Positions 8,670 through 62,500 of a stretch of 64,000 bases of DNA are shown piece after piece. Positions within the stretch are counted from its first letter, which is position 1. Each line of letters opens with the position of its first letter. The stretch comes from Callorhinchus milii (Eukaryota): contig NW_024704742.1 in assembly GCF_018977255.1 (NCBI RefSeq), positions 90,150,001-90,214,000 of the forward strand, read 5' to 3'. A model generated the notes under the pieces. The model was not told the origin of the DNA. It made no database searches and saw only the letters and a list, made by a program, of their open reading frames with translations. Both the position numbers and the translations under genes were made by a program.

Positions 8670-9420
8670 AATACAACAAAAAATTACATTTGTATAGCGC
8701 CTTTCATGTCAGGAGGACGTCCCAAGGTACCGAACAGTCAGGAAACTGCACCTGAGCTGGTGGTTGGAATTAGGATGGGTGGAGGGCAGGGAAAGGAGGG
8801 GTAGGAGGGTGACTGAATGTACGGCTGAAGAGGAGGGTCTTGAGACGGGTCTTGAAAGAGGCAAGGGAAGGGGTGAGGCGGACAGACTGTGAGATGGAGT
8901 TACAGAGAGTGGGGCAGAAAGGCTGAAAGCCTGCCCACCAATGGTGGGATGGGTAAGGCAAGGGACGTGAAGCAAGCCAGAGCCCATTGAGTGGAGTGAG
9001 CAGACAGGTTGGTGGGGGGTTAGGAGATCACGGAGGTAGGGGAGAGCAAGGTTGTGGAGGGATTTGAAGGTGAGTGATGGGGAGCCAGTGGAGTCGGACG
9101 AGAATGGAGTGATAGGATCTCGGAGCATGGTGTGGTAGAGGACACGGGCTGCAGAGTTCTGGATGATCTGCAGCCTGTGGAGGGAGGAGTTGGGGAGGCT
9201 GACAAGCAGTAACTTTGCATAGTCGAGCGTGGATGTAATGAATGCGTGAATGAGGGTCCCGATGGGCCTGCGGTGAGAGACAGTGCCAGAGTTGGGCGAT
9301 GTTGCAGAGGTGAGCAAAAGCAGAGCGGGTCATGGCACGGATGTGGGGGATGGAGGACAATTGAGGGTTGAACAGGATGCTGAGGTATTGGCTCTGTGAG
9401 GTTTAGAGTGCATCGTGAAG
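8670..9420 (-). mobile_element. L2 LINE 3' fragment encoding RT C-terminal region (frameshifted); second L2 tail at about 9425-9520
   Basis: ORF peptides TLIHAFITSTLDY...LQIIQNSAARVL and SFKTRLKTLLF; tail gggacgtcctcctgacatgaaaggcgctatac. Confidence 0.9.
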
Positions 9421-17907: not shown

Positions 17908-18272
17908 ACAATAATAATAATAATCCTTGCATTTGATATAGCACTTTTCACATCTTCTAGATGTTTCAAAGTGCTTCACAGAATAAACTGTAAAGTGAAT
18001 TGACTGTATATTGTGGGAGAAACATGGCAGCCGATTGCACACAGCAGTGTCCCACAAATAGTCATGGATTGAGTGACCAAGTTATTCTTGTTTTTTTTGA
18101 GGGATTATTAACCAGGGAAAAGCTATCTGCCGATCGACTTAACAACTGGATTCCTACTTACTGCTAGGTATACAAGGTGCTTGGAGTAAGGAAATTTGCC
18201 CAACATTTCGCCCCGCTGGGAATAGAACCCAAGTCTCTCGCTTGCGAGGCCAGTGCTCTACTGAGTTGTCTA
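17908..18272 (-). mobile_element. tRNA-headed SINE, long subfamily
   Basis: Head (gggaatagaacccaagtctctcgcttgcgaggc), internal cctacttactgctagg segment, Deu-like body, tail. Confidence 0.88.
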
Positions 18273-18339
18273 ACCCCATTGACTTACCACAAAGAATGGG
18301 GTTGGCATTCCACTTCTGAGCAAGATTCAATCTATTTAG

Positions 18340-18540
18340 ACAGTATCTATGGAGAGAGGAAAGTGAGTTAAGGTTTCAGGTCGATGATCTTTTGTCAGAA
18401 CCTTTTGTTCTGACGAAATGTCATCGACATGAAACCCTAACTCACTTTCCTTTCTCCATAAATGCTGCCTGACCTGCTGAGTGTTCCCAGCGACTTTCGT
18501 TTTTATTTCAGATTTCCAGCATCTGCAGTATTATGCCTTC
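18340..18540 (+). mobile_element. Penelope-like element terminus with inverted duplication and hammerhead-like motifs
   Basis: 62-bp inverted repeat (18340-18401 / 18407-18469); CTGACGA..GAAAC core; downstream gctgcctgacctgctgagt...tttcagatttccagcatctgcagta, which I recognise as typical of chondrichthyan Penelope ends. Confidence 0.75.
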
Positions 18541-18544
18541 AATC

Positions 18545-18712
18545 TATTTACGTAGCTTTTCAGAGTGGCCAGAATTTGGCAAATTGTTGAATTCAGTCTT
18601 AACTCGGAAGTCAGTTTTCTGTAGTTCCTAAAAAAATAAGGAATTTGACAAATTCTGGATATTCTGAAATGTTTGGAAATTAATCTCAACCCAGATGGAA
18701 TTTCACCCCCCA
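18545..18712. mobile_element. Palindromic MITE family copy (left end missing)
   Basis: ccagaatttggcaaat...atttgacaaattctgga; right end acccagatggaatttcacccc. Confidence 0.7.
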
Positions 18713-19006
18713 AATTTCTTTAAGTGGCAGTCACAGGAGTCAAGGGCCACACAAAGACTTTAACATCATCATCTGTTTACATTATGCATTCTGTTTACTC
18801 ACATCAGTAGTCTGAATATCACCAGAACACAATGAATCAGCCATGTGTACTTTATTCCATCGCAGAAAGTGCATGAATGGTGTAAACAGTCAAGAATACA
18901 AAGCGATTACACCATGCTATTGATTATTTCCTGGCACTGGACTGCATATTGCATCTTGTAATTCTACACCTTTTACTTCTTAAATTTAAGAAAACATAAT
19001 AAAAAT

Positions 19007-20480: not shown

Positions 20481-20564
20481 TACCTTAAATCAGAAACTAT
20501 CTGATCTAAGGTATTAAAAATAATAAAAAGGTTCCAGTATCCTTGAATAGAGTGAGAATCTTAT

Positions 20565-20965
20565 AATTAATAATTTCTGCATTTGGTATTATGCCTACAA
20601 TCTTGGGAACATCTTAAAGCACTTCACAAATTTTCTGTAAAGTATAGTGGCTGTATATTTGTCGATGGATGCAACAGGCAATTTGCACAGTGACATGAAG
20701 TGAATGACCAATTTCATTTGGCCAGGACACTGAGAGAAACTCGCTTCTCTTTTCAAATAATGCCATGTGATTGTTAACATCCACCTGAACTGGCTGACAA
20801 GCCCTCAGTTTAACATCTCATTCGAAGGACGGCAGCTCCAAAACTGTAGCACACCCCAGGACAGCTTTGGAGTGTCAGCCAAGACTGTAAGCTCAGAGTC
20901 CTGCCACTAATCTCACAAAGCTCTGACCTTGAGGCGAAAGTGCTATAGATTGTGCCAGGCAGACA
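20565..20965 (-). mobile_element. Full-length old Deu-domain SINE
   Basis: Collinear antisense match to 57030-57465. Confidence 0.78.
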
Positions 20966-28827: not shown

Positions 28828-29200
28828 TAATAATAATCCTTGCATTTGATATAGCGCCTTATCACGTCTTTGAGATGTCGTAAAGTGCTTCACAGAATAT
28901 ACTGTAAAGTGAATTGACTGTATATTTTGTGGGCAAAATGCCGCAGCCAATTGCGCACAGGAGTGTCCCACAAACAGTCGTGGATTGAAGTGAACAATTT
29001 ATTATTATTATTATTTTGAAACCGTTATTACCCCTGGAAAGTGATCCACCAATTGACTAACACCTAGGTTCCTACTTACTGCTGGGTAAACAGAGTCGTG
29101 TGGAGTAAGGAAACTTGCCCAAGGTTTCACCCTGCCGGGAATCGAACCCAGGTCTCTCGCTTGCGAGGCGAGTGCTCTAACCACTGAGCTACAGGTCTCC
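28828..29200 (-). mobile_element. tRNA-Ala-derived SINE, long subfamily, full length
   Basis: Canonical B box GGTTCGATTCC, anticodon-like loop CTCGCAA, internal ctgtttacccagcagtaagtaggaacc segment. Confidence 0.92.
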
Positions 29201-40984: not shown

Positions 40985-41170
40985 CATAGAATCACAGAAT
41001 CATAGAATTATAAAGCACAAAAGGAGGCCATTCGGCCCATCGTGTCTGTTCCGGCTCTTTGAAAAGAGCTATCCAATTCAGTCCCACTCCCCCGCTCTTC
41101 CCCATAGCCCTGCAAACTTGTCCTCCCCAAGTAATTATCTATTTGGGGAAGACAAGTTTGCAGGGCTATG
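40985..41170 (-). mobile_element. CR1 3' tail with a fold-back at its 5' truncation
   Basis: (CATAGAAT)-type octamer tail, ggaggccattcggcccatc; 28-bp inverted repeat 41103-41130 / 41143-41170. Confidence 0.85.
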
Positions 41171-41861
41171 AGGCTACAATTATCTAACGCCCACAGCACT
41201 GACATTAATCTGTCACTTTGCCAGAGGTATTTGATGATATAACAAAGAATATTGTGCGGAGTAGCCAAACCACAATGTCTACAAGGAAAGATGAGTTTAA
41301 TCCTAATACTGTAGCATGCACTGCAATGAATAGATGCATTGTCGGCTCATATGGTATTGGAAAAAGGTTTGAGGATCAGATGGTTAAACAGTCATTTTAA
41401 GATTGTAATTGTTTGAAATTAAGGAACAAAGTAGAGAATTCTTTCAAAAGAACATGCATTGTGTTCAGTCGTTAGTTCTGTCTTTTGGAACTAATTTGTG
41501 TTTTGGTTTATTTTCTGAATTCTTAGAGATAAGACAACTTCGACATGTTTGGACTTAGATACATTTGAAACAGGGCATTATGTTACCAGTGTTGGCATTA
41601 CAATAATCAGGCCATTTCTGGCAAGAAGCTGATTTTTTAAAAGCCACACTGCGCTAATCCTCTCAGGAGCAAAAGAAAAACGCAACAGTGCAATTTAAGA
41701 ACGCGGTTCTCTGATGGGTCACCTTTAATTTTTCTCTGCAATGACTAGAGACTTATGTTGTCTCTAATAAAAGTATTTTCTTTACCATCACATTGAAGGA
41801 GGGGAGGGAGCAAAGGCAGTGTGAAACATCAAACCAAGATCGATTCACTAAGGCAATCAAA

Positions 41862-45720: not shown

Positions 45721-45978
45721 AGCGCTTCACAGAATATATGGTAAAATGAATTGACTGTATATTTGTGGGCAAAATGTGGCAATCAATTGCGCACAGCAAT
45801 ATCCCACAAACAGTCGTGGATTGAAGTGCCCAATTTATTATTGATTTTCTTTTCTTGAGGGATTATTATCAGGTGTGTTGGTGTAAGGAAACTTGCCCAA
45901 GGTTTCGCCCTGCCAGGAATTGAACCCAGGTCGCTCACTTGCAAGGCGAGTGCTCTAACCACTAAGCTACAGGACTCT
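45721..45978 (-). mobile_element. tRNA-SINE, short form, tail missing, inverted relative to its neighbour
   Basis: Head at about 45905-45978; joins a plus-strand tail remnant at the palindrome AGCGCT. Confidence 0.88.
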
Positions 45979-60082: not shown

Positions 60083-60409
60083 TATAATAATATAATAATA
60101 ATATTACTTGCATTTGATATAGCACTTTTCACGTCAGGAGGACATCCCAAAGCGCTTCACAGAACACACTGTAAAGTGAATTGACTGTATATTTGTGGGC
60201 GAACGCGGCAGCCAATTGCGCACAGCAATGTCCCACAAACAGTCGTAGATTGAAAATGACCAATTTAATTATTGTTTTTGGTTTTTTGGAGGGATAATTA
60301 TTAGTCGTGTGGAGTAAGGAAACTTGCCCAAGGTTTCGCCCTGCCTGGAATTGAACTCAGGTCTCTCACTTGCAAAGCGAGTGCTCTAACCACTGAGCTA
60401 CAGGACTCC
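60083..60409 (-). mobile_element. Young tRNA-SINE, short subfamily
   Basis: Near-identical antisense match to 45362-45680. Confidence 0.93.
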
Positions 60410-60682: not shown

Positions 60683-61890
60683 CAATAACAACAACAAAAA
60701 AAAATATATTTGTATAGCGCCTTTCACATCAGGAGAACGTCCCAAGGTGCTGGACTATCAGTGTTTTGGACCTGAGCTGGGGGCCTGGGTCGGGGAGGGT
60801 GGAGGACGGGGGGGAGAAGGAGGGTTGAAGAGGAGTCTTGAGATGGGTTTTGAAGGAGGCAAGGGAGAGGGCGAGGCAGAGGGACTGTGAGATGGAGTTC
60901 CAGAGGGTGGGGGCAGAGTGGCAGAAGATCCACCCACTAATGGTGCTGCATGCGAGGCGGGGGATGTGAAGCAGGCTGGAGCTCGCTGAGCAAAGAGAGC
61001 GAGCAGGATAGTAGAGGGTTAGGAGGTCGCAGAGGTAAGGCCATGGAGGGCTTTGAAGGTGAGGACCAGGATCTTGAACTGTATCCTCTGTATGATGGGA
61101 AGCCAGTGGAGTCGGGCGAGGATGGGGGTGATAGGGTTACGGAGCCTCGTGTGGGAGAGGACGCGGACTGCAGATTTCTGGATGATCTGCAGCCTAAGGA
61201 GGGAGTAGTTGGGGAGGCTGACAAGCAAGGAATTTGCATAGTCAAGCCTCAATGTTATGAATGCGTGTGTGAGGGTTTCAGTGGCCTGCGGTGTGAGACA
61301 ATGGCGGTGTTGGGCAATGTTGCAGAGGTGGGAGAAGGCAGACCGAGTCAAGCCACGGATGTGGGGTAGAAAGGATAGTTGAGGTTCAAACAAGACCCCA
61401 AGGTTCCAGACTGGCTTAGCAAGGTGGAGTGTGCAACCATGGATGGCGATGCTGTCAGTGCCTGAGGTGTGGAGGCGCTGACGGGAGCCAATCAGGAGGG
61501 CTTCAGTCTTGTTGATGTTCAACTGAAGAAAATTAACTCTCATCCAAAACTTGATGTCTGACAGACATTCTGTCAGGATAGCAGTGGTCCTGGAGTCGAG
61601 GGTGGTGGCAGAGAGGTACAGTTGGGTGTCATCTGCAAACATGTGGAAGTTGACACAATATCTGTGAATGATGTCACCAAGATGGAGCATATAGATTTTG
61701 AAGAGGAGGGGACCAAGGATAGAGCACTGAGGAACGCTGCACGAGATGGTGTGGGGGCTAGAGGAGAAGCCATTTGTGGAGATGAAATGGAGGCGGTGTG
61801 AGGGGTACCATCTGAACCAGTCAAGGACAGAACCATGAAGGTTGAGGTCAGAGGAGAGGCAGTGGATAAAGATAGTGTGGTCAACATAGA
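60683..61890 (-). mobile_element. Longest L2 LINE fragment; RT domain readable for about 290 codons
   Basis: VLDWFRWY..SVPQCSILGPLLFKIYM..FHMFADDTQLY..WMRVNFLQLNINKTE..LHWLP; 5'-truncated, frameshift at 3' end, tail. Confidence 0.95.
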
Positions 61891-61894
61891 TATA

Positions 61895-62500
61895 AACGGG
61901 AATATATCTACGTTTGCTGATGGCACAAAGTTTGAATGCATGGTGAGTGGTGAAGGACAGCGCAGAAATTTGCAAGCAGATTTTGATAATCATGAGGAGG
62001 GGTATTGCAAATGCAATTAAATGTAGCAAAATGGGAAACAATCTATTATGAGCATAAAAATGGAGGAGGGGATTTCAAATAGAAGTAAATGAGGATTTTT
62101 AAGCCGGAACCAATAAACACAGGGATTTAATTGTATGAATAAACAAATCATTACAAGTCAGTTCACATGTGTAGTGCACCAGTGGAAAACTGGAATGCTC
62201 AGCTGGAGGCATAGAATTTAAAAGCAGGGGAGGATTTTTGTTGCTATATTGGGCATACTGACAAGACCAAATTGCATGCAATTTTAAAATCCTCTTTACA
62301 GAAAGGATTGCAGTGAATGTTTTGTAAGTTTCTAAATACCAGATATGAGAAAGCTAATATATAGTAAAATCAAGGATAGACAAGGGGTGTACTATATAGA
62401 GAAATAGTTTAGAATTATCAAGAGGCTCAACAAAATAAGAATTGAGCGACTTTTTCACCCCTGATATGTCCATGAGTTACAAGAGGACATAGCTTTAAAT
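61895..62500 (+). mobile_element. Old CR1 RT fragment abutting the L2
   Basis: ORF 61835-62020 ISTFADGTKF...RNLQADF resembles CR1 ISKFADDTKL..LQ.DL. Confidence 0.7.

What the first reader, a model, noticed from the sequence alone, without database searches (positions are those of the whole stretch)
18340..18469. 62-bp hairpin from a Penelope-like terminus with a hammerhead-ribozyme core on each strand
Seen: 18340-18401 is the reverse complement of 18407-18469 with scattered mismatches, around a 5-nt loop (CTTTT). The plus arm reads CTGACGA-A-ATGTC-atc-GACAT-GAAA-C (18410-18435), i.e. the CUGANGA and GAAA boxes around a 5-bp stem II. The minus arm reads CTGACAA-AAGATC-atc-GACCT-GAAAC. Established: Penelope-like retroelements carry minimal type I hammerheads in their pseudo-LTRs and often leave inverted partial pLTRs. 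Inference: both copies are probably degenerate, because the GAAAC-GUH end reads GAAACC in both and the minus copy has lost a core G. The locus would still form a long dsRNA stem if transcribed from either strand.
Basis: partly seen in the sequence, partly recalled or inferred. Interest (0 to 1): 0.7.

Follow-up and report, generated by a model that had tools for sequence, protein, structure and literature searches.

The report
Dead fold-back Penelope-like retroelement stub
The hairpin is real, but it is an old 199-base leftover of a jumping gene: two head-to-head copies of its end piece, each with a self-cutting RNA motif that has since been broken, which is a known and common kind of genomic debris.

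Summary
The hairpin is confirmed: two 63-nt arms (18339-18401, 18407-18469), 54 of 63 identical, 5-nt spacer, folding z -13.7. Contigs of four public runs show a very abundant repeat family. Its majority letters give a complete minimal type I hammerhead (CUGANGA, stem II, GAAAC-GUU), and a sister subfamily covaries in stem II. This copy is broken on both arms: the plus arm lost U16.1, the minus arm lost G8, both share a rare C16.2, and the long hairpin buries both folds. Best reading: a dead-on-arrival, 5'-truncated, inverted-plus-direct insertion of a Penelope-like element end, a published pattern. The link to a Penelope RT/GIY-YIG ORF and the empty site could not be shown here. Two leads remain. 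The family's predicted cleavage site lies inside a branch-point-like motif of a splice-acceptor-like signal followed by AUG. The plus arm also carries an unexplained compensatory pair change in stem II. Verdict: ordinary; low interest.

The parts
18326..18338 (.). Left copy of a 13-bp target-site duplication, 85% A+T (flanks 56.5%)
   Evidence: record 1 (run X1) crosses this junction with 0 differences, but that run may be the window's own source
18339..18401 (-). Inverted, 5'-truncated copy of the element end (63 nt); left arm of the hairpin
18367..18401 (-). Broken minimal type I hammerhead: G8 is A (18393), one stem II pair is A-C (18388), 16.2 is C (18372); U16.1 kept
   Evidence: table 3
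18402..18406 (.). 5-nt spacer at the head-to-head junction
18407..18537 (+). Direct, 5'-truncated copy of the element end (131 nt); boundaries uncertain by about 2 nt
   Evidence: family alignments end mostly at 18532-18539
18407..18441 (+). Broken minimal type I hammerhead: stem I 18407-09/18439-41, CUGACGA 18410-16, extra A 18417, stem II 18418-22/18426-30, GAAA 18431-34; 16.2 is C (18436) and U16.1 is C (18437)
   Evidence: table 3
18437..18464 (+). Family-level splice-acceptor-like signal: branch-like YUNAY (A at 18440), pyrimidine tract, AG at 18460-61 (native in the minus arm at 18348-47, lost in the plus arm), then ATG at 18462. Inferred, not shown
   Evidence: 18461 is G in 95-99.6% of family depth
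18462..18536 (+). 25 open codons up to the element end; possible N-terminus of the parent ORF. Unconfirmed
   Evidence: one search found no protein relative
18470..18537 (+). 68-nt extension present on one arm only (published PLE tails are 30-40 nt)
18538..18550 (.). Right copy of the 13-bp target-site duplication

Best explanation
The locus is one old, dead-on-arrival insertion of the end piece (pseudo-LTR with its minimal hammerhead plus tail region) of an endonuclease-bearing Penelope-like retroelement. Shown: a 199-bp insert between 13-bp A+T-rich direct repeats, made of a 131-nt direct copy and a 63-nt inverted copy that start at the same nucleotide; an abundant family whose majority is a complete minimal type I hammerhead; loss of core letters on both arms; burial of both hammerhead folds in the long hairpin. 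Inferred: the parent's RT/GIY-YIG protein cut both target strands 13 nt apart, primed cDNA at an internal site, and stopped 3 nt upstream of CUGANGA. The second arm was then copied from the same template or by snap-back on the new cDNA, which explains the symmetric junction and the rare C16.2 shared by both arms. Since then both arms have decayed independently. The hammerhead served the parent element (as a dimer or with protein help) and does nothing here. If transcribed, the locus gives a passive dsRNA stem.
For: TSD of 13 bp, reached by 1 of 3000 random points. Family abundance: 15,559, 21,176, 18,015 and 962 contigs laid on the 601-bp stretch in 4 of 4 runs (this count includes a neighbouring SINE and MITE), with depth near 10 or 0 in the unique flanks. 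Family majority in the four runs: 18437 U 86-99%; 18436 G 62-95% with the CpG-decay letter A 4-33%; 18419 G 64-98%; 18429 C 87-99%; 18388 paired letter 74-95%. At the 16.2 position, all letters other than G and A make up 1.5-3.4% (minus arm) and 0.9-8.2% (plus arm), yet both arms have C. Loose-end consensus before 18440 in 4 of 4 runs keeps the core, varies N7 (A, C, U) and has a G-C first stem II pair with a different loop (table 7). This fits the published consensus CUGANGAH-stem II-GAAAN-NUH. 7 of the 32 listed contig pieces span the hairpin centre with 16-24 other letters and 1-12 gaps, so similar junctions arose at other loci (table 8; the list is selected for length). Published PLE insertions have an adjacent inverted truncated copy, a one-sided tail, 8-10-bp TSDs and palindromic junctions and prefer A+T-rich cuts on both strands. 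Hammerhead stems have pairing probability 0.000 in the whole insert on either strand.
Against: No physical link to a PLE reverse transcriptase or GIY-YIG ORF was found; membership rests on motif and architecture. The empty site was not seen: runs X10 and X13 do not cover the unique flanks, and none of the 15 joints shown (of 350) skips the insert. The one-sided extension is 68 nt, not the published 30-40. The first stem II pair of this subfamily is A-U (or G-U), not the G-C called highly conserved in PMC4209133. G8 on the minus arm is the family letter in only 42-89% of depth, lowered by CpG decay and by bias towards the reference letter. The plus arm carries a two-sided change in stem II that plain neutral decay explains poorly. 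Depth is not a copy number.
Confidence: 0.85

Rival explanations
1. A self-propagating non-autonomous fold-back mini-element (or retrozyme-like monomer): the 199-bp hairpin unit is itself the mobile entity, copied in trans by a PLE protein.
For: Head-to-head junctions near this site recur in other contigs (7 of 32 listed pieces; depth at 18404 is about 7%, 4% and 3% of depth at 18414 in X1, X10, X13). One paralogous fold-back contig has depth 709 in a run guessed to be RNA (record 25). PLE-derived non-autonomous retrozymes are reported in vertebrates, including one chondrichthyan.
Against: The centre-spanning pieces differ in spacer and gaps, and the letters between joints differ from case to case (tables 5c, 8), as expected of independent junctions. 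No tandem organisation here, which defines retrozymes. No second copy in the window.
Confidence: 0.07
2. An exapted functional RNA at this locus: a pre-miRNA or endogenous siRNA hairpin, or a working ribozyme.
For: Very stable stem with a 23-bp uninterrupted helix. The only 2 transversions among the 9 arm differences (18419, 18429) are the two sides of one stem II pair of the plus arm, G-C changed to U-A.
Against: The plus arm lacks U16.1 and the minus arm lacks G8; both lose the ACGU palindrome needed for the dimer stem III. Stem II cannot form in a transcript that spans the insert. Arms differ at 14% of sites, mostly transitions. Rfam miRNA matches are far below gathering score (29.8 against 55.4 bits; 23.9 against 73). 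Template switching during replication can make such two-sided changes without selection (PMC8794818 abstract).
Confidence: 0.04
3. A foldback DNA transposon (MITE) whose inverted repeats resemble a hammerhead by chance.
For: A long palindrome between direct repeats; the bare motif occurs by chance in 21 of 100 shuffled windows.
Against: The inverted repeats are not terminal (68 nt on one side only). Family depth is concentrated on single arms and falls sharply at the centre. The family majority restores every hammerhead core position that differs here and covaries in stem II. A 13-bp TSD is longer than those of common DDE superfamilies (recalled, not tested).
Confidence: 0.03

Closest known systems
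Minimal hammerheads (min-HHR) of metazoan Penelope-like elements (Cervera and De la Pena 2014, PMC4209133; main text parts 1-2 of 4 and supplement file 2 parts 1-2 of 3 read)
   Same: Type I layout, CUGANGA plus one extra base, short stem II, GAAA-C-G-U-H with no helix III, 3-bp helix I; most motifs dispersed as truncated remnants; pairs on opposite strands close together are mentioned.
   Different: No chondrichthyan row in the paper's alignment of 56 motifs. Opposite-strand pairs there lie about 100-700 bp apart; here the cores are 11 nt apart. This subfamily has A-U at 10.1-11.1. This copy fails the core on both arms.
Insertion units of endonuclease-positive PLEs: inverted 5'-truncated pLTR, one-sided tail, TSD (PMC8557442 and PMC3846280, passages read)
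   Same: Head-to-head inverted copy, palindromic junction, extension on one end only, short TSD, pLTR plus tail holding the first 12-22 codons of the ORF in Pen2a_Av (25 open codons here).
   Different: No ORF body at all; total 199 bp; extension 68 nt instead of 30-40; TSD 13 bp instead of 8-10; no RT link shown.
Poseidon from Anolis carolinensis, PAc (PMC11167929; parts 1-2 of 4 read)
   Same: Hammerhead near the ORF start, internal RT start sites about 100 nt downstream, A+T-rich target cut on both strands; ribozyme needs protein help and is dispensable for insertion in vitro.
   Different: Sequence similarity not tested (no PAc sequence found in 3 supplement files). In PAc the ORF starts at stem II; here the candidate AUG lies 24 nt after the cleavage site.
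Non-LTR retrozymes of animals (bioRxiv 10.64898/2026.07.22.740005; parts 1-2 of 5 and passages read; supplements closed)
   Same: Non-coding, PLE-derived, carrying a type I hammerhead.
   Different: Retrozymes are head-to-tail tandem units with an intact motif in consecutive units; this is a head-to-head pair with broken motifs.

Membership tests
Metazoan PLE minimal hammerhead (family level) | Core CUGANGA, one extra base, stem II, GAAA, then C-G-U-H | tested here: met
   Majority letters in 4 of 4 runs against the published consensus; 41 further variant rows were not shown
Metazoan PLE minimal hammerhead (family level) | Covariation in stem II | tested here: met
   Sister subfamily with G-C instead of A-U at the first pair and another loop, loose-end consensus in 4 of 4 runs (21-335 records, agreement 0.58-0.75; table 7). 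One event only
Metazoan PLE minimal hammerhead (family level) | G10.1-C11.1 pair | tested here: inconclusive
   Present in the sister subfamily; A-U in both arms here; G at 18418 in 37-87% of depth
Active hammerhead (this copy) | Intact core (G8, A15.1-U16.1) and palindromic 15.2-16.2 for dimer stem III | tested here: not met
   Plus arm U16.1 is C; minus arm G8 is A; both have C16.2
Active hammerhead (this copy) | Stems I and II able to form in the transcript | tested here: not met
   Pairing probability 0.000 in the whole insert on both strands; 0.10-0.13 (plus) and up to 0.009 (minus) for stem II in single arms
Active hammerhead (this copy or family) | Self-cleavage | not testable with these tools
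   Needs an in vitro assay
Endonuclease-positive Penelope-like element | Attachment of the family to an ORF with PLE-type RT and GIY-YIG endonuclease | tested here: inconclusive
   No protein relative of the 42-codon frame among 75-2000-residue proteins (weak by the tool's own note). In 150 window frames the only Pfam match above its curated cut-off was an RT at 61022-62074 that I read as LINE-type. No genome held
Endonuclease-positive Penelope-like element | Adjacent inverted 5'-truncated copy, head to head | tested here: met
Endonuclease-positive Penelope-like element | One-sided tail of 30-40 nt | tested here: inconclusive
   One-sided extension present but 68 nt; a hint of a second family end near 18504 in 1 of 4 runs (149 records) is confounded by a mismatch at 18505
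Endonuclease-positive Penelope-like element | Short TSD in A+T-rich target | tested here: met
   13 bp, 85% A+T; empty site not seen
Endonuclease-positive Penelope-like element | Similarity to a curated Penelope/Poseidon/Neptune consensus | not testable with these tools
Non-LTR retrozyme | Head-to-tail tandem units with intact hammerheads | tested here: not met
   Single head-to-head pair, both broken (definition)
Known microRNA family | Rfam match at gathering score | tested here: not met
   29.8 of 55.4 bits and 23.9 of 73 bits

The most novel reading that the evidence does not exclude
In the parent element of this family the hammerhead lies inside a 5' intron: its scissile bond (after 18438) falls within the branch-point motif, 2 nt before the branch A, of an acceptor that delivers the AUG of the ORF. 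Self-cleavage and splicing would then exclude each other, giving PLE hammerheads a concrete role as a switch between spliced mRNA and retrotransposition template. The same folded region would also be a preferred stop and snap-back site for the RT, which would explain the recurring mini-hairpins. This concerns the family, not this dead copy.
Probability: 0.12. Interest if true: 0.6.

Novelty: new member of a known kind. Interest (0 to 1): 0.18.

Why it matters
For this locus, little: it is one of very many decayed stubs. It is a clean worked example of PLE insertion anatomy (TSD, symmetric junction, one-sided extension, a rare letter shared by both arms pointing to one template). The role of PLE hammerheads is called unclear in PMC8557442, and the ribozyme is dispensable for insertion in vitro. 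If the overlap of cleavage site and branch point holds in full-length parents, that open question becomes directly testable. Searches listed no paper on this overlap or on hammerheads of this fish family, but the library lacks most subscription journals, including Lunse et al. on PLE hammerhead dimers, and Repbase or Dfam may already hold the family.

Tried and rejected
Own-genome search: no genome held. Rfam at E up to 10: no hammerhead model matched; minimal hammerheads without helix III may escape those models (inference). Pattern scans with letters shared by both arms: 2 matches in metagenome contigs, both without similarity beyond the pattern and rejected as chance; 0 in viral contigs. 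Other copies in the window: none; a 45-nt weak match at 20561-20603 (E 0.011) was not counted. Protein search for a parent ORF: none. Host gene context: 150 frames scanned (149 of the 192 non-repeat frames of 55 aa or more, plus one long RT frame); 4 weak matches below cut-off were dropped, so whether the locus is intronic is unknown. Expression: no RNA holder listed; run X5 is RNA only by guess and no listed X5 piece matches this locus, so nothing is concluded. Empty site: flanks not covered in organisms B and C. A at 18439 as a second rare shared letter: rejected, because the majority G there probably comes from the sister subfamily. Starts of many contig pieces at 18405-18409 as evidence of a truncation hotspot: rejected, because the reference element itself begins there. 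Cleavage with a shifted U at 18438: rejected by inspection, stem I then fails. No PAc sequence in its supplements. Supplement file 1 of PMC4209133 could not be searched and the bioRxiv supplements are closed; either may list this family.

Full report
OBSERVATION. The hairpin exists as described, with arms one base longer: 18339-18401 and 18407-18469, 54 of 63 identical, 5-nt spacer. It folds at -90.3 kcal/mol, z -13.72, better than all 200 shuffles. The two motif readings are exact. The bare motif is weak evidence: a minimal descriptor with stem II of 5 bp or more hits once in the window and in 21 of 100 shuffles, and Rfam lists no hammerhead among 27 matches.

ANATOMY. The hairpin is part of a larger insert. 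An identical 13-mer stands at 18326-18338 and 18538-18550; 1 of 3000 random points gives such a repeat, and it is 85% A+T against 56.5% for the flanks. Between them lie 199 bp: a 63-nt inverted copy, the spacer, and a 131-nt direct copy whose last 68 nt have no partner. Both copies begin at the same nucleotide, 3 nt upstream of CUGANGA, which is the 5' edge of a 3-bp stem I. No other copy lies in the window. The surroundings are dense in tRNA-derived SINEs and LINE remnants (36% self-repeated). No host exon was identified. The repeat make-up suggests a cartilaginous fish; that label is recalled and echoed by earlier AI notes, not tested.

THE FAMILY. No genome is held, so I laid contigs of four public runs, from three coded organisms, on 18170-18770 at 80% likeness. 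Depth is 0-10 in the unique left flank and rises to 10^3-10^6 over the insert, so this is an abundant repeat in all three organisms (depth is not a copy number). Family alignments end mostly at 18532-18539 and continue into unrelated A+T-rich sequence. Where this copy departs from a hammerhead, the family majority does not: U at 18437 in 86-99% of depth, G at 18436 in 62-95% (with the CpG-decay letter A in 4-33%), a G-C second stem II pair, and the paired letter at 18388 in 74-95%. G8 of the minus arm is the family letter in 42-89%. The majority therefore reads CUGANGA, an extra A, a 5-bp stem II, then GAAA-C-G-U-U, matching the published min-HHR consensus and many rows of its alignment. A sister subfamily, seen as loose ends in 4 of 4 runs, keeps the core, varies N7 and swaps the first stem II pair from A-U to G-C with another loop. 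Only 40 variant rows, 15 of 350 joints and 32 of about 57,000 pieces were shown, and contigs that match the reference letter are favoured.

THIS COPY IS DEAD. The plus arm has C at U16.1 and the minus arm has A at G8; G8 substitution abolishes cleavage in PAc, and the need for the A15.1-U16.1 pair is established knowledge (recalled). Both arms have C at 16.2, which destroys the ACGU palindrome that lets minimal hammerheads build helix III as dimers. In a transcript of the whole insert, on either strand, every stem I and stem II pair has probability 0.000 because the long hairpin wins. The arms differ at 14% of sites, 7 of 9 by transitions, so they are not being homogenised.

HOW IT AROSE. Published EN+ PLE insertions carry an adjacent inverted 5'-truncated copy, a tail on one end only, palindromes at the junction and 8-10-bp TSDs; self-priming was proposed for the palindromes. 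The PAc protein cuts and extends both strands of A+T-rich DNA and starts reverse transcription at internal sites. I infer a 13-nt staggered cut, cDNA from the tail end that stopped at the edge of the hammerhead, and a second arm copied from the same template or by snap-back. The shared C16.2 supports one template: letters other than G and A make up at most 1.5-8.2% of family depth there. Similar junctions formed elsewhere: 7 of 32 listed pieces span the centre with different letters and gaps, and depth at the centre is about 3-7% of that at the core in the three DNA-type runs. Not shown: a link to a PLE ORF and an empty site. The 68-nt extension is about two published tail lengths; D. virilis pseudo-LTRs end in one or two 34-37-bp units, and one run hints at a family end near 18504, but this is only a hint.

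TWO LOOSE ENDS. First, the only two transversions between the arms (18419, 18429) are the two sides of one stem II pair of the plus arm. By rough post hoc arithmetic this has odds of about 1 in 1000 under independent decay. A minor subfamily or a local template switch (PMC8794818, abstract only) can explain it; selection for a ribozyme is unlikely given the lost U16.1. Second, the family has an acceptor-like signal right behind the hammerhead: branch-like YUNAY with its A 21 nt before the G of an AG, 16 of 18 pyrimidines, then ATG and 25 open codons to the element end. The AG is native in the minus arm and the ATG in the plus arm. Only 7 of 8476 AG sites in the window pass the same filter, which I set after seeing the motif. 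PLEs are known to keep 5' introns, and the D. virilis intron ends at helix I. Here the predicted cut would fall 2 nt before the branch A. The protein search gave no support for this AUG, so I put the reading at 12%.

COMPARISON AND NOVELTY. It works like a truncated inverted-plus-direct insertion of an EN+ Penelope-like element; membership is met on motif and architecture and open on the ORF link. It is not a retrozyme (no tandem units) and not a known miRNA. No chondrichthyan is in the 2014 alignment, and searches listed no paper on this family, but vertebrate PLE hammerheads and this insertion pattern are in print. Earlier AI notes on the same genome describe several like insertions; they agree but are unchecked and not independent evidence.

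PAPERS SEEN. PMC4209133: parts 1-2 of 4, supplement file 2 parts 1-2 of 3. PMC11167929: parts 1-2 of 4, supplement search. bioRxiv 10.64898/2026.07.22.740005: parts 1-2 of 5 and passages. Passages only: PMC8557442, PMC3846280, PMC8969392, PMC2377424, PMC4350176, PMC6765202. Abstract and opening only: PMC8794818. Lunse et al. (PMC5785218): not held, known only as cited.

VERDICT. Observation confirmed; interpretation supported; new member of a known kind; interest 0.18. Most novel reading (cleavage against splicing in the parent): probability 0.12, interest 0.6 if true.

Noticed in passing
window 18561-18666: A separate palindromic repeat 10 nt right of the TSD: imperfect terminal inverted repeats of about 18 nt, folding z -4.9, high family depth in 4 of 4 runs. 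Looks like a MITE; no TSD identified.
   Followed up: partly
window 41100-41173: A near-perfect 34-bp-arm hairpin, folding z -11.3; Rfam miRNA models match only far below gathering score. MITE or pre-miRNA-like; not resolved.
   Followed up: partly
run X5, record 25, laid on window 18355-18451: A 1128-nt contig with depth 709 in a run guessed to be RNA starts with a paralogous fold-back of this family (16 other letters, 1 gap). It may be an abundant transcript with such a hairpin; its RNA status is unproven.
   Followed up: no
window 17911-18282 and at least 9 other places (e.g. 29127-29198, 45905-45976, 60336-60407): An abundant tRNA-derived SINE with a LINE-like tail; its head scores up to 60.7 bits on the tRNA model. 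A decayed copy ends about 45 nt left of the insert.
   Followed up: no
window 61022-62074 (-): A 351-codon frame with a reverse-transcriptase domain (Pfam RVT_1, E 3.3e-10), read as a LINE2/CR1-type remnant (recalled motifs); unrelated to the insert.
   Followed up: partly
window 8825-8858 (+): A second match to the minimal hammerhead descriptor (4-bp stem, long loop, no GUH) inside a LINE remnant; taken as chance.
   Followed up: partly
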